A DNA stretch of 64,000 nucleotides from Escherichia phage KEP4. Position numbers and translations under genes: made by a program. Shown in pieces: positions 14,904 through 60,154 of the stretch. Location: the sequence record PP047754; one strand, written 5' to 3'. Under the pieces are notes generated by a model. The model was not told the DNA's origin. It made no database searches and worked only from the letters and a program-made list of their open reading frames with translations. Position 1 is the stretch's first letter; every line of letters begins with the position of its first letter.

Positions 14904-15242
14904 ATATTATTTCTCACGTGTTAGCAAACTTGGCTACATAATAATGTCATGCTCTGTTTAGACCAAATAAAATATTTTACTTGTTGAATAAAAATCGCTT
15001 TCTTGTTGAACAATCCGTGCGTAATATACGAGTTGTGAGCTTTGCGAGCAACGAGTATTATCACGAGCGAAGCGAGTAGACTGATAAAGAAAGGTTTTAT
15101 TAAAACAGAATATTATAAATGCCGTCAGGCATTTATTTATCGCGCGTAGGGCAATTTATCACTTGTTCTATAACTACAAACACGCGATACTAATTTGCGT
15201 CAAATATGACTTGAACCCCACTATATTTTGAGGATACAACTA
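14904..15242. promoter_or_regulatory. 340-bp AT-rich intergenic control region upstream of gp45
   Basis: Largest non-coding gap in the replisome region; contains TATAAATg (15114-15121), clustered GCGAG/CGAGC repeats (about 15038-15078), duplicated cttgttgaa. Confidence 0.4.
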
Positions 15243-57217: not shown

Positions 57218-58843
57218 TCATGCGCCTTTACCACCAAAATTGCCGCCGTTATCCTCTAACTCCGGTTTTATATCAATTGGACCTGGGCCTGTAGTTGTTA
57301 CAGGAGTTGCCCCCGCACGTGAGGCGGCGCGACCAGCGCCTTCAGCATATTTGATGTTGCCTTCAATAGTCTGCGCCACCGACAACTTATCACAAACTAT
57401 TTCACTAGCCAGTATTTTAGGCACTTTCAAAGTATTGGAAACTTCCAACATTTCACAGATGAGACGCAACACGTTCTGTGCCTGTATCTCTGCCAATTGG
57501 GAAAATTTCATCAACGCCGTGCCAGCGACCACATTGGAGTAGTTAGAAGAGTGCAAGTGGTAAACTTCTCCTGTCTTACGCTGTACTTCAGTCCCGCCGA
57601 TAGTCAGGTTGTGATCACGACCAACATAGTAACGTTTGTCAAACATCGTCAGATCATAATGATCTTTGACTGATTTATTGACCACGTCCCCGTCAGGAAG
57701 CATCTGCTTATAAGACCCCGAGGAGTGCATCCAATGGAGACGTTCCCCGCCTGGTGTGTCATCAACCTCCATAATATGCCCCGACCGAGATGCCATGACA
57801 TTGTTGTAAGGATAACGAGACCCGCCAGCAGAAGGAACCGACACCTCTCCTGTGTTATCAATATCTTGAACACGCCCAGAAGGAGGCGGAGTTTCCTGAA
57901 CTTTTGGTGTACGATCAGGGATTGGCTCAGACCATTTACCATTTTGTTGTGTAGGAGCCGCCGATGCTGTCGTAGCAGGACCAGGCCAACGATAACCCAA
58001 CACAGATGAGCGGCTGAAGCGACTCACCTTCACAGAATCTGATTGGTTGCCTCCAATACACCAAACATAATTGGCATCGAATTTCTGCACGAACGCAACG
58101 TGTCCGAATGTTGGGTTGTTGCCACGCCGGAATACAACAACAGCGCCGTAGCGGGGTTCCGACAAAGGGGAACCCCATTGCAAATATGAACGAGCCAAAG
58201 CCGAGCGCGTTGAAGTGTATCCTGCTTGGATCAACACCCATCCCACAAATGAAGCGCACCAGCTGACTTCATCTTCCGAAGCGCCCAAAGATGTTGTCTT
58301 GTGATATTCCAAAATCCTTGGGTTATTATTGAATTTGCCAGAATATTCTTTGACACCTAATTCACCACGAGCCACTGTCATCCATTTCTCAGGATCATAA
58401 CCGTCTACAGGCGGTTGAGGTTCTGGTTGTGGGTCGTCTTCAATCTTGACAGGAACATTTTCAACGGCGTTATATTTCTGTCTTTCTATAGATTGAACAA
58501 CCTGGCCCAGCGCCAACGGGTTTGTGTCTGAACCATCCGTTGGTGTCGCCGCTGGCCAAACCCAGGCGATACGAATATTTTGGTATGCTTCATCCAAAGC
58601 AAATCCCATAACATCCGACCCGACTGTAATACCCGTTGGAGACCAGCCTAAACCTGCCGAGGAGGCGTTGGATGCTGGCATGAGCATTTTACCCCAAGGC
58701 AATAATTCGGTAGGTAAGAGAGTGGTATCTTCCGTGTGTACACCATAGATGCGCACAGCGACGCGCCCGTTCTGGTCGGGATCATTCACGTCTTCAACGC
58801 GCCCGTAAAACCAACGCAAGTTGTCTAACATATTGAAACCCAT
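57218..58843 (-). CDS. baseplate central spike/hub protein gp5 with CHAP/NlpC-P60-like peptidase domain
   Basis: N-terminus LRWFYGRVEDVNDPDQNGRVAVRIYGVHTEDTTLLPTELLPW matches the gp5 OB domain; middle VSWCASFVGWVLIQAGY ... GHVAFV resembles a Cys/His CHAP core, not a T4-lysozyme domain. Confidence 0.65.
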   Translation of the reverse strand: MGFNMLDNLRWFYGRVEDVNDPDQNGRVAVRIYGVHTEDTTLLPTELLPWGKMLMPASNASSAGLGWSPTGITVGSDVMGFALDEAYQNIRIAWVWPAATPTDGSDTNPLALGQVVQSIERQKYNAVENVPVKIEDDPQPEPQPPVDGYDPEKWMTVARGELGVKEYSGKFNNNPRILEYHKTTSLGASEDEVSWCASFVGWVLIQAGYTSTRSALARSYLQWGSPLSEPRYGAVVVFRRGNNPTFGHVAFVQKFDANYVWCIGGNQSDSVKVSRFSRSSVLGYRWPGPATTASAAPTQQNGKWSEPIPDRTPKVQETPPPSGRVQDIDNTGEVSVPSAGGSRYPYNNVMASRSGHIMEVDDTPGGERLHWMHSSGSYKQMLPDGDVVNKSVKDHYDLTMFDKRYYVGRDHNLTIGGTEVQRKTGEVYHLHSSNYSNVVAGTALMKFSQLAEIQAQNVLRLICEMLEVSNTLKVPKILASEIVCDKLSVAQTIEGNIKYAEGAGRAASRAGATPVTTTGPGPIDIKPELEDNGGNFGGKGA

Positions 58844-59350
58844 TAGTCAATTAGAATCATGGGTTATTTATGGCGGGGATTTGAAATCTGTCGAATAGTA
58901 ATATTATAGGAAGCTCTGCTTCCGTTCAATTTTATTCTTTTCGTTTCTACTCGCTGAAGCTCGTAACACCGCCTTGACAGGCAGTCCCATTCCAATGCCA
59001 TGGAGGCATAAAGGCGAGGAAAATACTGTACACCTCAGAACATGCGTAGAAAAGGATTATTTTTGCTTCAAAACAAATTCAAACCCCAATTTACACAACA
59101 CTTACTTCAGCAACAACGGTGTTATAGCAATTTAAGGTTAAACGTTCCTGTCTTAACCTATAAAACAGGTAAGCAAAGAAAACCCCACATTACGTGGGGT
59201 TGGAAGATTTCTTGGACAAACGTATCTTTAGTGTCTCTGTTAGCAAATCAAGATGCCAAGGCATCGACTCGCTTATTTCAAATATGCTATAGCCATGTGC
59301 CTTTAATTCGTCACACATCACAAAGTAGGAGAGTAAATCAATTTCAAAAA

Positions 59351-60154
59351 TTAAATGAAAATTTCAGTGACACTGTTAAATTTGACTTCATGTTCTTTCC
59401 CACACGAAGGACATTTAATTTTCGTCGCGTAACGGATACGAGGAATCTTTTTAAAGAAATCGTCGGATATATCTTGAACAATCTCAGATTCAATATTTTC
59501 CCCCACCCATTTAACAAATTCATCTTTGACGCGTTGACGTTCTTTAGCAACATCAGGTGCTATGCCAGGCTCTGCCGGATTCTCTACTTTCCAAACCTGA
59601 CCATCATCGTCATACAAACAATCAATAAATGTCGCGATCATTTGCTCCACAGATGATGCTTCGTTGAGCACTGAGGCGTCCGAGAAGGACGGTTGACGCA
59701 TCTTGATGTGATAGCCACCAGGGAGGTCAAATGTTTCCCTGAAGCCTTCTGGGGACACGCATTTCACTTGGTTGAGGGGGATCGGTAAAACAAGTTCTTG
59801 ACCACATTCTTTAAGGCCAGAAACTGGTTCTTCACCTTCATTTGTGTCGGATGGAACTTTGTTGTTACATTTGTATCGTATCTTCATGACCTCGCCGATA
59901 GATATACAGCGCATCTTTAAAAATACTTCTTCAGTAACACCGATTGGCAGTTTACTAAAGGGAACCCCAGCGTCAACACAACTATCAAACAGTTGCTCCA
60001 GCGTCGCCACACGTTCACTCATAGGAGTGTTCGGATCAGCAACCTGAAGTAACATGGTCTGTTGCCCTGCTGTGAAAGCGCGGTATTTAATCACCGTCGG
60101 CCAGAAATCACTTTTGTGTGTTCTCTCAGTTTTGGGCAATGATGGTAAATTCAT
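59351..60154 (-). CDS. late structural protein, probable baseplate component (identity uncertain), 267 aa
   Basis: GGAGA RBS and TATAAATA late promoter upstream on the - strand; co-oriented with gp5 and gp25; C-terminal CPSCGKEHE zinc-ribbon-like motif; ORF-track start 60247 not used. Confidence 0.4.
   Translation of the reverse strand: MNLPSLPKTERTHKSDFWPTVIKYRAFTAGQQTMLLQVADPNTPMSERVATLEQLFDSCVDAGVPFSKLPIGVTEEVFLKMRCISIGEVMKIRYKCNNKVPSDTNEGEEPVSGLKECGQELVLPIPLNQVKCVSPEGFRETFDLPGGYHIKMRQPSFSDASVLNEASSVEQMIATFIDCLYDDDGQVWKVENPAEPGIAPDVAKERQRVKDEFVKWVGENIESEIVQDISDDFFKKIPRIRYATKIKCPSCGKEHEVKFNSVTEIFI

What the first reader, a model, noticed from the sequence alone, without database searches (positions are those of the whole stretch)
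58844..59350. 500-bp structured non-coding gap between reverse-strand baseplate genes
Between the gp5 start and the upstream reverse-strand late gene there is about 500 bp without a credible ORF (forward ORF 59042-59656 overlaps the reverse gene and lacks an RBS). It contains a strong hairpin that reads as a terminator on the - strand (about 59172-59200), a second hairpin (about 59145-59168), and a CATAAATA late-promoter variant about 20 bp upstream of the gp5 start. I found no tRNA cloverleaf. It may hold a small RNA or a decayed gene.
Basis: seen in the sequence. Interest (0 to 1): 0.4.

Follow-up and report, generated by a model that had tools for sequence, protein, structure and literature searches.

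The report
Micro-gene, terminator and conserved promoter–RNA cassette
The 500-bp "empty" gap before the tail-lysozyme gene of this Vi01-like phage holds a tiny conserved protein gene, its terminator, and an undescribed conserved folded element that recurs before two other key genes; the element's function is unknown.

Summary
The window is a Kuttervirus (Vi01-like, Ackermannviridae). The gap between gp26 and gp5 is real, but it is not ORF-free.

On the minus strand it contains, in order:
1. A conserved 42–53-codon micro-gene (59351/59318 to 59190). It matches phrog_9633 and weakly resembles the C-terminus of T4 gp51. Substitutions fall mostly on third codon positions.
2. An intrinsic terminator (59201–59172). 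Its stem changes by compensation in five genera, and the micro-gene's stop codon lies inside the hairpin.
3. A stretch that diverges at the neutral rate.
4. A 123-nt element, "E" (59065–58943). Its 5' half is a fixed-spacing promoter-like motif. Its 3' half folds into a pseudoknot, a hairpin and a stem with tandem G·A pairs, all with covariation.
5. A structure-conserved hairpin lying between a −35-like box and TATAAT.
6. The invariant late promoter CATAAATA (58872–58865).

E has paralogues upstream of gp6 and gp45 (window 14987–15083), only in this phage family. It matches no Rfam family and there is no tRNA.

My best reading is a leaky terminator followed by a promoter-plus-leader RNA cassette and then the late promoter. 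What the element does remains inferred.

The parts
59190..59351 (-). Conserved micro-gene. It is 53 codons if it starts at ATT 59351–59349, which overlaps the gp26 stop (TAA-TT), or 42 codons from the invariant ATG 59318–59316. The stop TAA is at 59192–59190. Product: (I)FEIDLLSYFV-MCDELKAHGYSIFEISESMPWHLDLLTETLKIRLSKKSSNPT.
   Evidence: phrog_9633: E = 7.5e-29 for the 42-aa form and 1.9e-36 for the 53-aa form. phrog_634 'baseplate hub assembly catalyst' (T4 gp51): E = 0.036 / 0.0035 here and 3e-6 to 4e-4 in relatives. Variable columns by codon phase are 14/9/35 of 53 each; the N-terminal 11 codons give 1/1/5. The ORF is annotated in LIMEstone1 (ORF060), Ag3, Bue1 and SilasIsHot. A library-wide HMMER search found only 24–49-aa phage proteins.
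59172..59201 (-). Intrinsic terminator: AACCCCAC-GUAAU-GUGGGGUU followed by UUUUCUUUG. The micro-gene's stop codon sits in the loop.
   Evidence: -13.2 kcal/mol, z = -3.9. Compensatory stems: CCCCGC/GCGGGG in Taipeivirus, UCCCGC/GCGGGA in Aglimvirinae, GGCCGC/GCGGCC in Miltonvirus. Annotated as a terminator in Maynard, May and LIMEstone1.
59147..59169 (-). It is specific to this lineage and probably not functional as a hairpin.
   Evidence: -10.4 kcal/mol here, -1.8 in a 92%-identical Kuttervirus, and ≥ -4.5 in other genera.
59121..59130 (-). TTGCTATAAC, an extended -10-like box. It is conserved as AAATT(G/C)nTATAA(C/T). Candidate host-type promoter behind the terminator.
   Evidence: Alignments. 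The consensus scan did not call it because there is no -35.
59066..59105 (-). Variable spacer evolving at about the neutral rate.
   Evidence: 32–40% identity to Taipeivirus and Limestonevirus. gp5 third codon positions are 44–46% identical.
59019..59065 (-). 5' half of element E, a promoter-like motif with fixed spacing: A-tract 59065–59056, box CCTTTTCTAC 59055–59046, 15 nt, then TG-TACAGT (TAnnnT) 59030–59025. The implied transcription start is near 59018.
   Evidence: TTTTC.A and TGTAnnnT are invariant in 17 sequences from two loci and three genera. The composite motif occurs in Vi01 only at the gp5, gp6 and gp45 loci plus two likely chance hits; shuffles give 1.9 ± 1.7. No covariation is seen in this half.
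58943..59018 (-). 3' half of element E, the folded part. H1 is AUGCC (59009–59005) paired with GGCAU (58999–58995). The pseudoknot pairs the loop CCAU (59003–59000) with AUGG (58990–58987). H2 is ACUGCCU (58985–58979) paired with AGGCGGU (58974–58968). The G·A stem UUACGAGC-UUCA-GCGAGUAG spans 58966–58947.
   Evidence: Model R1 scores 103.9 bits, E = 2e-23. 96.4% of cells are paired and 6 pairs change on both sides, one in every helix with more than one pair including the pseudoknot, against 0–3 in slid controls. G·U pairs form on this strand only. No 3-base periodicity: 14/18/19. ORFs here match no PHROG.
58903..58929 (-). Element F: a -35-like TTGAAC (58929–58924), the hairpin GGAAGC-AGA-GCUUCC (58923–58909) filling the 15-nt spacer, and TATAAT (58908–58903). 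It is preceded by an AT-rich stretch (58946–58925). The layout resembles a PeSL terminator/promoter composite.
   Evidence: Hairpin: -8.1 kcal/mol, z = -2.8. The structure is kept with different sequences: GGAUGC/GCAUCC in Taipeivirus, UUAAUUC/GAAUUAA in Miltonvirus, GGCGGC/GCCGCC in Bue1. PeSL layout: PMC2839356.
58865..58872 (-). T4-type late promoter CATAAATA for gp5.
   Evidence: Invariant in Kuttervirus, Taipeivirus, Limestonevirus, Agtrevirus, Miltonvirus and Bue1. It matches the (C/T)ATAAATA / CTAAATA boxes found 25–50 nt before other late genes of Vi01. gp55, gp33 and gp45 homologues are annotated in Vi01.
58829..58843 (-). gp5 start region. The ATG at 58843 exists only in Kuttervirus. 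The ATG at 58831 (MLDN...) is conserved in all genera and is the likely true start.
   Evidence: Alignments. Maynard annotates the shorter form.
14987..15083 (+). Third, partial paralogue of element E, 160–260 nt upstream of the sliding-clamp gene gp45. It has the A-tract and CTTTC box, the hairpin UACGAGUUG..CAACGAGUA, and the G·A stem CACGAGC-GAA-GCGAGUAG. It lacks the pseudoknot and H2.
   Evidence: R1 scores 17.2 bits here (E = 0.069). The same locus scores 47.8 bits (E = 5.5e-10) in Limestonevirus and Agtrevirus, and 29.5 bits in Taipeivirus. Alignment A4.

Best explanation
The gap is a densely packed junction between two late transcription units. It is not empty DNA and not a single small-RNA gene.

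**Shown**
1. Right after gp26 lies a tiny conserved gene of 42–53 codons.
2. Its stop codon lies inside the stem-loop of a conserved intrinsic terminator.
3. About 110 nt further on lies a 123-nt element, E. The phage family keeps it in three copies, upstream of gp5, gp6 and gp45, always in the orientation of the downstream gene and upstream of that gene's late promoter.
4. E has two halves. The 5' half is conserved as sequence with fixed spacing. The 3' half is conserved as base-paired structure on the sense strand.
5. gp5 has an invariant T4-type late promoter 34 nt before its conserved start codon.

**Inferred**
- The micro-protein is a minimal relative of the C-terminal part of T4 gp51, the hub-assembly catalyst. 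It is made in small amounts by re-initiation at the AUU that overlaps the gp26 stop, or at the AUG 33 nt downstream.
- A ribosome finishing the micro-gene covers the 5' arm of the terminator. Termination is therefore leaky and tied to translation.
- The 5' half of E is a promoter: an A-tract, a -35-position box and a TAnnnT -10 box. The 3' half is the start of its transcript. This transcript is a folded leader (pseudoknot, hairpin, G·A stem) that acts in cis on the pre-late transcript heading into gp5. Its effect could be on stability, read-through of the next hairpin, or translation.
- The hairpin-plus-TATAAT (F) is a PeSL-like attenuator/promoter.
- The bulk of gp5 expression comes from the late promoter, whose transcripts start downstream of all of this.
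For: **Identity of the phage and gap.**

**Selection.** Between genera, gp5 third codon positions are 44–46% identical and the spacer 59105–59066 is 32–40% identical. The micro-gene (79–82%), E (66–72%; 98–99% within Kuttervirus) and F (65–81%) are far more conserved.

**Micro-gene.**
- PHROG matches.
- Codon-phase variability of 14/9/35.
- The N-terminal 11 codons are conserved with synonymous changes, although the first codon is ATG only in Aglimvirinae. It is ATT, ATC or ATA elsewhere.
- A divergent member starts M-F-E-M-D-L at that position.
- hhalign places the family on T4 gp51 residues 209–236.
- The gene sits next to gene 26, as gene 51 does in T4.

**Terminator.**. The stop codon lies in the loop or the 5' arm in all five genera.

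**Element E.**
- Exactly two high-identity copies per genome in IMG/VR.
- The covariance model finds only the gp5, gp6 and gp45 loci in a whole Vi01 genome, and finds them in other genera.
- Pairing statistics and compensatory changes in every helix with more than one pair.
- G·U pairs are specific to the sense strand.
- The promoter-like motif is restricted to the three loci.
- All covarying helices lie downstream of the implied start site.

**Other parts.** F hairpin. Late promoter.
Against: - No transcript data exist for this phage family in the searchable literature. Every promoter, start site and terminator here is predicted only.
- The promoter-like motif has a poor match to the sigma-70 -35 box, and the consensus scanner did not call it.
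- In the gp45 copy the implied start site falls inside the 5' arm of one hairpin. That hairpin would not form in the RNA.
- Covariation is thin, with one compensatory pair per helix, because the sequences are close. The shuffle control on the number of covarying pairs is not significant (168 of 500).
- The link to gp51 is weak for this phage's own sequence (E = 0.036–0.0035; hhalign probability 10%).
- The hairpins could form in single-stranded DNA rather than RNA.
- There is no obvious reason why baseplate genes need a pre-late transcript.
Confidence: 0.55

Rival explanations
1. Element E and its two paralogues are stand-alone small-RNA genes. Each would have its own promoter, a folded RNA of about 100–150 nt, and an end at the next hairpin. 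These RNAs would act in trans on host or phage targets and would not be leaders of the downstream genes.
For: The promoter-like 5' half is followed by a structured 3' half. A hairpin follows each copy: GGAAGC/GCUUCC here, AACGC/GCGUU + UUUGAUU before gp6, and AUAAAUGCC/GGCAUUUAU before gp45. The family is multi-copy.
Against: None of the three downstream hairpins has a proper U-tract on the sense strand. The tail here is UAUAAUAUU, and the scanner called none of them on that strand. The strict co-orientation and constant position just upstream of a late promoter suggest action in cis. No conserved single-stranded seed with an evident target was found.
Confidence: 0.2
2. The three E cassettes work at the DNA level as R-loop elements. 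In this reading a dedicated promoter transcribes a segment whose non-template strand folds into very stable hairpins. These contain GCGAAGC-type mini-hairpins and tandem G·A pairs. An AT-rich stretch follows. The resulting RNA–DNA hybrid would either prime replication, as at T4 oriF and oriG, or give the clamp loader a junction for loading gp45 next to the late promoter.
For: There are three copies per genome, about 41–71 kb apart: Vi01 47.9, 92.5 and 133.9 kb. The order promoter-like motif, then structure, then a 19–41-nt AT-rich stretch, then late promoter holds at all three loci and in Erwinia phage Bue1. One copy precedes the clamp gene itself. T4 oriF is a promoter whose transcript is the primer (annotation). 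d(GCGAAGC) is an unusually stable DNA hairpin (my own knowledge, not checked here).
Against: This rests purely on analogy. Nothing here measures replication or R-loops. The pseudoknot covariation is more natural for RNA than for displaced DNA. T4 origins need no such structures. Loop sequences other than GNA occur: UUCA in this window and AAC in a Taipeivirus.
Confidence: 0.12
3. The non-coding part is only spacer, or the remains of a lost gene, containing a terminator and a late promoter. Under this reading the rest has no function.
For: Part of the gap (59105–59066 and 58899–58874) does evolve at the neutral rate. The region as a whole folds no better than shuffles.
Against: E and F are 65–81% identical between genera whose synonymous sites are saturated at 44–46%. 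E is the most conserved segment within Kuttervirus at 98–99%. Paralogues exist at two other loci. Helices change by compensation.
Confidence: 0.04
4. Element E encodes another small protein, for example the 45-codon ORF 58864–59001 (-) or the 64-codon ORF annotated before gp5 in Klebsiella phage May.
For: Such ORFs are annotated in SilasIsHot, May and others. The gp5 and gp6 copies share a possible MA(L/A)EWDCLSRRCYE reading.
Against: The start codon is CTG in Taipeivirus. Indels of 1–2 nt occur within the region. There is no third-position excess: 14/18/19. No PHROG match.
Confidence: 0.03

Closest known systems
T4 gene 51 product (baseplate hub assembly catalyst; phrog_634), and phrog_9633
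   Same: The micro-gene is a full-length member of phrog_9633. It and its orthologues match positions ~60–110 of the 121-position gp51 profile and residues 209–236 of T4 gp51. It lies next to gene 26, as gene 51 does in T4.
   Different: It is 42–53 aa, against 249 aa in T4, so it covers only a C-terminal segment. It is co-directional with and downstream of gene 26, whereas in T4 gene 51 is divergent from it. The first codon is AUU, not AUG. The statistical support is weak for this phage's own sequence.
PeSL (promoter-early stem-loop) cassettes of T4-type phages (PMC2839356, PMC4122927)
   Same: Both have an AT-rich stretch, a -35 box, a stem-loop between -35 and -10, and a TATAAT box. PeSLs are proposed to stop upstream transcription from spilling into late virion genes while re-initiating. 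Element F (58946–58903) has this layout and this position.
   Different: PeSLs are many-copy and cluster around ORFans in hyperplastic regions. F is a single orthologous site in the conserved core. Its -35 matches 4 of 6 positions and its spacer is 15 nt. Neither activity was tested.
T4-type late promoter (TATAAATA, read by gp55/gp33/gp45)
   Same: An 8-bp A/T box lies 22–34 nt before the start codon of a virion gene. The phage encodes gp55, gp33 and gp45.
   Different: The first base is C (CATAAATA). Many late genes of this family use CTAAATA.
Cis-acting phage leader RNAs: HK022 put antiterminator RNAs and the T-even gene 32 leader pseudoknot (my own knowledge)
   Same: These are folded RNA elements placed just downstream of a promoter. 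They are conserved by structure, present in more than one copy per genome (putL and putR), and act on the transcript that carries them. The gene 32 leader has a compact H-type pseudoknot far upstream of the start codon.
   Different: There is no sequence or model-level similarity, and neither was available as a model to test. The partner, whether RNA polymerase, a protein or nothing, is unknown. Here a late promoter lies between the element and the gene.
T4 oriF/oriG replication origins
   Same: Both combine a promoter with a downstream AT-rich segment, occur several times per genome, and in T4 one of them lies beside genes 25 and 26.
   Different: T4 origins use MotA-type middle promoters and have no conserved folded segment. 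The box here is 19 nt from the -10 element, against ~12 nt for a MotA box. No replication data exist.

Membership tests
Intrinsic (Rho-independent) terminator | G+C-rich stem-loop followed directly by a U-run | tested here: met
   8–9 bp stem with 5–6 G-C pairs and a tail of UUUUCUUUGCUU. -13.2 kcal/mol, z = -3.9.
Intrinsic (Rho-independent) terminator | Structure, not sequence, conserved in relatives | tested here: met
   Four different stem sequences in five genera fold to -13 to -16.6 kcal/mol at the same position.
Intrinsic (Rho-independent) terminator | Transcripts end there | not testable with these tools
   No RNA 3'-end data are available.
T4-type late promoter | TATAAATA-like box at the right distance from a late gene | tested here: met
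   CATAAATA at 58872–58865, 22 and 34 nt before the two ATGs. It is invariant across genera and of the same class as other Vi01 late boxes.
T4-type late promoter | The phage encodes gp55, gp33 and gp45 | tested here: met
   All three are annotated in Vi01, which is 85–99% identical to the window over the aligned segments.
T4-type late promoter | Late-phase transcription start 6 nt downstream of the box | not testable with these tools
   No 5'-end data are available.
phrog_9633 (small phage protein, function unknown) | Significant full-length profile match | tested here: met
   E = 1.9e-36 over profile positions 1–49 of 49 for the 53-aa reading.
T4 gp51 / phrog_634 (baseplate hub assembly catalyst) | Significant profile match | tested here: inconclusive
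   Window protein: E = 0.036 (42 aa) and 0.0035 (53 aa). Orthologues: 4.4e-4 (LIMEstone1), 3.2e-6 (Miltonvirus), 7.9e-6 (Bue1). hhalign against T4 gp51: E = 0.0032, probability 10%.
T4 gp51 / phrog_634 (baseplate hub assembly catalyst) | Comparable length and full domain | tested here: not met
   42–53 aa, covering only ~45 of 121 profile positions. T4 gp51 is 249 aa.
T4 gp51 / phrog_634 (baseplate hub assembly catalyst) | Adjacent to gene 26 | tested here: met
   It lies immediately downstream of gp26 in all genera. In T4, gene 51 is the divergent neighbour of gene 26.
PeSL composite terminator/promoter | AT-rich stretch, sigma-70-like -35 and -10 boxes, stem-loop within or next to the promoter | tested here: inconclusive
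   TTGAAC (4 of 6), a 15-nt spacer that is the hairpin, and TATAAT (6 of 6). The AT-rich stretch is 58946–58925. The scanner did not call it, which is consistent with the 15-nt spacer lying outside its 16–18-nt range.
PeSL composite terminator/promoter | Repeated many times, flanking variable ORFans | tested here: not met
   It is a single orthologous site in a conserved core junction. A similar hairpin + TATAGT occurs before gp6 only in Bue1.
Any Rfam family, tRNA or tmRNA | Covariance-model or ARAGORN match | tested here: not met
   Nothing below E = 1 overlaps the element in the window, the gp6 locus, or LIMEstone1, Bue1 or Ds25CZ. ARAGORN finds 0 genes.
Hammerhead ribozyme (considered because Aglimvirinae copies read CUGAUGAGCGAAGCGAA) | Conserved CUGAUGA...GAAA core in all members | tested here: not met
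   Kuttervirus copies read GUUACGAGC...GCGAGUA. No Rfam hammerhead hit in LIMEstone1.
T4 MotA-dependent middle promoter | TGCTTtA box ~12 nt upstream of the -10 element | tested here: not met
   Some copies read (T/C)GCTTTC, but the box lies 19 nt from TAnnnT.
T4 oriF/oriG-type origin | Promoter whose transcript forms a primer R-loop in a downstream AT-rich unwinding element | not testable with these tools
   Only the layout is seen: a promoter-like motif and a 19–41-nt AT-rich stretch.

The most novel reading that the evidence does not exclude
The three E cassettes, before gp5, gp6 and the clamp gene gp45, may be R-loop elements. A dedicated promoter would transcribe a segment whose displaced strand locks into hyper-stable G·A hairpins next to an AT-rich stretch. 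The RNA 3' end would then serve as a replication primer. If so, these would be the family's unmapped origins. Alternatively, it would give the clamp loader a fixed site for placing gp45 beside a late promoter. That would be a hard-wired version of the nick-dependent 'mobile enhancer' of T4 late transcription.
Probability: 0.1. Interest if true: 0.85.

Novelty: new variant of a known kind. Interest (0 to 1): 0.5.

Why it matters
Most genome records of this widely used group of therapeutic and biocontrol phages (Vi01, CBA120, LIMEstone and relatives) leave this junction blank.

Three results are useful and testable:
- A family-wide micro-protein sits next to the hub gene gp26. It may be the missing counterpart of T4 gp51, and it appears to start at a non-AUG codon overlapping the upstream stop.
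- Its terminator contains its own stop codon, which points to translation-tuned read-through.
- A three-copy, family-specific cassette combines a promoter-like motif with a pseudoknotted, G·A-rich fold in front of gp5, gp6 and gp45.

The third result gives the first concrete candidates for either pre-late regulatory leaders or replication/late-transcription control sites in Ackermannviridae. I found nothing published on either. A single 5'/3'-end RNA-seq experiment on any of these phages would decide between the readings.

Tried and rejected
- **Rfam.** I ran permissive scans of the gap, the gp6 locus and three relatives, plus a gathering scan of the whole window. Nothing was found.
- **tRNA/tmRNA.** None.
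- **Internal repeat within the window.** None at blastn level. The 'second place' in every record turned out to be the gp6-upstream copy, which lies outside the window.
- **'Enterococcus phage Efm 3-10' hit.** This suggested spread beyond the family, but the record is a mislabelled Kuttervirus contig carrying gp6.
- **Host origin of E.** No match in 5,426 E. coli genomes.
- **Protein-coding readings of E and of the forward ORF.** No PHROG match, no codon periodicity, and frame-breaking indels.
- **Closing helices.** A helix CGCCUU/AAGGCG, and another CUCGC/GCGAG, are not maintained in Taipeivirus and Aglimvirinae respectively. The competing H2 and G·A stem are compensated instead.
- **Long-range pairing of UUUUCUAC with GUAGAAA.** Present in Kuttervirus only.
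- **Hammerhead, MotA-box and RfaH ops readings.** All were rejected on sequence or geometry.
- **IMG/VR scan for ACGAGCGWAGCGAGT.** It returned >120 hits in unrelated contigs. By my rough estimate from the size of the collection, that is about what chance gives, so it is uninformative.
- **Full-library HMMER search with the micro-protein.** It found no longer relatives. One 869-aa hit is a tandem-repeat artefact.
- **-1 frameshift fusion of gp26 to the micro-ORF.** The -1 frame is open only 4–12 codons upstream of the stop-overlapping codon and there is no X XXY YYZ site, so re-initiation is preferred.
- **Literature.** I found no transcriptome or promoter mapping for Ackermannviridae in the library.
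- **RBS occlusion in Kuttervirus.** ACCCAUG (58864–58858) pairs with AUGGGU (58843–38), and the late start falls inside the 5' arm, as for T4 gene e. This is not conserved in other genera.
Full report
**What the window is.** The region 58700–59500 is 99.8–99.9% identical to Salmonella and Escherichia phages of the genus Kuttervirus (Vi01, ECML-4, Maynard, Marshall). The flanking reverse-strand genes are annotated there as the gp26 baseplate hub subunit and the gp5 hub/tail lysozyme. PF12322 and phrog_150 confirm gp26. Most records leave the ~507 bp between the two genes blank. A few annotate a terminator, and a few annotate small hypothetical ORFs.

**Checking the observation.**
- The terminator hairpin is real: stem 59201–59194 / 59188–59181, then a U-run, -13.2 kcal/mol, z = -3.9.
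- The second hairpin (59169–59147) is real in this sequence at -10.4 kcal/mol. It drops to -1.8 in a Kuttervirus that is 92% identical in the gap, and it is absent in other genera. I treat it as incidental.
- CATAAATA lies at 58872–58865 on the minus strand.
- There is no tRNA in the window and no Rfam match.
- As a whole the non-coding part does not fold better than shuffled sequence (z = -1.44 and +0.02 for the two strands).
- The count of terminator-like sites in the neighbourhood is at chance.
- So 'structured gap' holds only for particular elements, and their support comes from comparison with relatives.

**A yardstick for selection.** The gap aligns over ~450 bp at ~74% identity with Taipeivirus (Klebsiella), Limestonevirus (Dickeya) and Agtrevirus (Shigella, Enterobacter). 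Between these genera gp5 protein is 83–87% identical. Third codon positions are only 44–46% identical, which is saturated. Inside the gap, 59105–59066 is 32–40% identical and 58899–58874 is 38–42% identical, so those stretches drift freely. The remaining segments are 60–87% identical. The gap is therefore a mosaic of constrained blocks and neutral spacers.

**Block 1: a micro-gene.** Directly after the gp26 stop there is an open frame ending at TAA 59192–59190.
- Variable alignment columns fall 14/9/35 on codon positions 1/2/3.
- The 42-aa product from the invariant ATG (59318) matches phrog_9633 at E = 7.5e-29.
- Extending it to the codon that overlaps the gp26 stop (ATT 59351–59349) improves the match to E = 1.9e-36 over the whole profile.
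- Those 11 extra codons are conserved with mostly third-position changes (1/1/5). Yet the first codon is ATG only in Aglimvirinae. It is ATT in Kuttervirus and Taipeivirus, ATC in Miltonvirus and ATA in Erwinia phage Bue1.
- A divergent database member begins M-F-E-M-D-L at that position.
- The frame is -1 relative to gp26. It is open for only 4–12 codons upstream of the stop-overlapping codon and has no slippery heptamer. I therefore favour termination–re-initiation at a near-cognate AUN codon, or at the AUG 33 nt downstream, over frameshifting. This is inference.
- The family also hits phrog_634, 'baseplate hub assembly catalyst', which is T4 gp51. The E-values are 0.036 / 0.0035 for this phage, 4.4e-4 for LIMEstone1, 3.2e-6 for Miltonvirus and 7.9e-6 for Bue1.
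- hhalign places it on T4 gp51 residues 209–236 of 249 at low probability. In T4, gene 51 is the neighbour of gene 26.
- A search of 1.8 billion representative proteins found only 24–49-aa relatives.
- I conclude that it is a real, family-specific micro-protein, possibly a minimal gp51-like factor. It fails the length criterion for membership of gp51 proper.

**Block 2: the terminator.** The stem sequence differs between genera but always pairs: CCCCAC/GUGGGG, CCCCGC/GCGGGG, UCCCGC/GCGGGA, GGCCGC/GCGGCC. In all five genera the micro-gene's stop codon lies in the loop or the 5' arm. A ribosome at that stop would cover the 5' arm. I infer that termination is reduced when the micro-gene is translated in step with transcription. 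This is plausible but untested.

**Block 3: element E.**
- A 49-bp piece (58959–59007) recurs at 96% identity in Vi01. There it lies 117–165 nt upstream of the gp6 start, the same distance as from the gp5 ATG here.
- In IMG/VR the core occurs exactly twice in each complete Ackermannviridae genome and nowhere else at that stringency.
- The gp6 copy is almost invariant across genera over ~170 nt.
- An alignment of 17 copies shows two halves.
- The 5' half has no covariation. It has fixed-spacing invariants: an A-tract, the box (C)TTTTC(T/A)A, 15–16 nt, then TG-TAnnnT. This is the geometry of a -35 box, spacer and -10 box with an upstream A/T element. In the whole Vi01 genome this composite occurs only at three loci, plus two probable chance sites. 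Shuffles give 1.9 ± 1.7.
- The 3' half is base-paired. H1 is AUGCC/GGCAU, and CAGCC/GGCUG in the gp6 copy.
- A compact H-type pseudoknot pairs the H1 loop CCAU with AUGG five nucleotides downstream. In Taipeivirus both paralogues read CCCU/AGGG.
- H2 is CUGCCU/AGGCGG, and CUGUCU/AGACGG in Taipeivirus.
- A further stem reads UACGAGC-loop-GCGAGUA with tandem G·A pairs. One flanking pair switches from C-G to U-A in Aglimvirinae. The loop ranges from GAA to an inserted hairpin.
- On this structure 96.4% of cells pair. Six pairs change on both sides, one in every helix with more than one pair, against 0–3 when partners are slid.
- The covariation is thin. The control on the number of covarying pairs is not significant (168 of 500).
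- G·U pairs in H2 would be mismatches on the other strand, so the fold belongs to the gp5-sense strand.
- There is no codon periodicity (14/18/19). The small ORFs annotated here by some authors match no PHROG and are broken in other genera.

**A third copy.** A covariance model built from the 17 copies finds a third site in the complete Vi01 genome besides the gp5 and gp6 sites. It lies upstream of the sliding-clamp gene gp45, at window 14987–15083. The same locus scores 47.8 bits (E ≈ 5e-10) in Limestonevirus and Agtrevirus and 29.5 bits in Taipeivirus. Bue1's gp6 locus scores 26.5 bits. A 14-kb T4 segment containing genes 25, 26 and 51 scores nothing. The gp45 copy keeps the A-tract and box, a G·A hairpin and the G·A stem, but lacks the pseudoknot and H2. 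In Bue1 all three loci share the same order. It runs: promoter-like motif, hairpins with CGAG motifs, the stem CCGAGC-GUA-GCGAGUG, an AT-rich stretch, a CCGCGCGAGAG box, then a CTAAATA/CATAAATA late promoter. The cassette is therefore a family-wide feature tied to three particular late promoters.

**Block 4: element F and the late promoter.**
- Between E and the late promoter lie an AT-rich stretch, TTGAAC, the hairpin GGAAGC-AGA-GCUUCC and TATAAT.
- The hairpin is kept by structure with unrelated sequences in Taipeivirus, Miltonvirus and Bue1.
- This layout matches the commonest PeSL arrangement in T4-type phages. PeSLs are composite attenuator/promoter motifs proposed to stop early transcription from spilling into late genes.
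- F is not a repeated, ORFan-flanking element, so I call it PeSL-like, not a PeSL.
- CATAAATA is invariant and belongs to the box class seen before other late genes of Vi01.
- The conserved start of gp5 is the ATG at 58831, not the one at 58843.

**How it most likely works.**
- *Shown:* the parts, their order, their conservation and their pairing.
- *Inferred:* transcription of the gp26 unit ends, leakily, at the terminator.
- *Inferred:* a second, pre-late transcript starts at the promoter-like half of E near 59018 and begins with the folded leader.
- *Inferred:* it meets the F hairpin. Late in infection, gp55-directed transcripts start at ~58859 and carry none of this.
- For gp45 a pre-late promoter in its divergent intergenic region is biologically required, which fits this reading.
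- For gp5 and gp6 the purpose of a pre-late transcript is unclear.
- In Kuttervirus only, ACCCAUG just after the late box can pair with the AUGGGU that contains the probable ribosome-binding site. The late start site falls inside the 5' arm, as in T4 genes e and 49.
- Rivals are stand-alone small RNAs, an R-loop origin or clamp-loading site, functionless spacer, and a further small protein. The last two are contradicted by the data. The first two cannot be excluded without RNA or replication data.

**Comparison with what is known, and novelty.** The terminator, the late promoter and the existence of a small hypothetical ORF are already annotated in some records. The following appear to be undescribed:
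- the coding evidence for the micro-gene
- the gp51 lead
- the non-AUG start overlapping the upstream stop
- the stop codon inside the terminator
- above all, the three-copy promoter-plus-fold cassette

E is not in Rfam. I found nothing about it in the searchable literature. I rate the finding as a new variant of known kinds of phage intergenic regulatory cassettes, of moderate interest. There is a small chance that it marks origins or late-transcription control sites, which would be much more interesting.

Noticed in passing
window 14904-15242: The whole 340-bp divergent intergenic region upstream of the sliding-clamp gene gp45 is conserved at 73.6–81.2% across genera (84% mean column identity in a four-genus alignment). 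Besides the third E-like copy it holds invariant blocks: TGTTTAGACCAA, CACTTGTTCTATAA, GCGATACTA and TTGCGTCAAA.ATGACTTGAAC. It is likely a dense set of promoters and operators for the gp45–gp44–gp62–regA operon.
   Followed up: partly
window 58829-58843: gp5 is annotated from the ATG at 58843 in Vi01 and many other records. That ATG exists only in Kuttervirus. The ATG at 58831 (MLDN...) is conserved in all genera and is used in the Maynard record.
   Followed up: yes
window 58838-58864: In Kuttervirus only, ACCCAUG immediately after the late-promoter box can pair with AUGGGU, which contains the likely ribosome-binding site of gp5. Transcripts from the late promoter would start inside the 5' arm and escape the hairpin. 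This is the arrangement known for T4 genes e and 49. It is not conserved in Taipeivirus or Aglimvirinae.
   Followed up: partly
L011 (OR844942.1, 'Enterococcus phage Efm 3-10') and MN871475.1 ('Pseudomonas phage Pa-sanjiao'): These public records carry improbable host names. The 5-kb stretch fetched from OR844942.1 encodes Kuttervirus gp6, and MN871475.1 encodes a gp5 that is 98.3% identical. They are likely mislabelled or contaminated.
   Followed up: partly
Vi01 124058, 126651, 129879, 141818 (L006); outside or partly outside the window: Several late promoters, notably before the tailspike genes, read CCTAAATAccccata... They are followed by a hairpin whose 5' arm starts right at the expected transcription start (ccccat...atgggg). 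This looks like a recurrent 5'-end stem-loop on late mRNAs.
   Followed up: no
window 58947-58966 and 15062-15081; L212, L214: The most universal piece of the cassette contains GCGAAGC or GCGTAGC flanked by 5'-CGAG-3' on both strands. As DNA, GCGAAGC is known as an exceptionally stable mini-hairpin (my own knowledge). Aglimvirinae copies read CUGAUGAGCGAAGCGAA, which mimics a hammerhead core but has no Rfam match.
   Followed up: partly
L093 1930-1945; L216 20140-20125 (-); L215 13200-13185 (-); L012 (Miltonvirus gp5 upstream); Vi01 gp6 upstream: A GC-rich box CCGCGCGAG(A/G)(A/G) sits 15–25 nt upstream of the late-promoter box at the cassette loci. T4-type late promoters are not supposed to need upstream elements. 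The box is absent before gp5 in Kuttervirus, Taipeivirus and Aglimvirinae.
   Followed up: no
Vi01 134830-138943 (L006 34830-38943), outside the window: This ~4-kb stretch has no annotated feature in the Vi01 record. In Bue1 a tRNA gene lies about 4 kb beyond gp6, on the same side. I did not examine the stretch.
   Followed up: no
P0005: An 869-aa database 'protein' made of 11 near-identical repeats matched the micro-protein at E = 1e-18. It looks like a translated tandem DNA repeat, so the match is a composition artefact and not a relative.
   Followed up: yes
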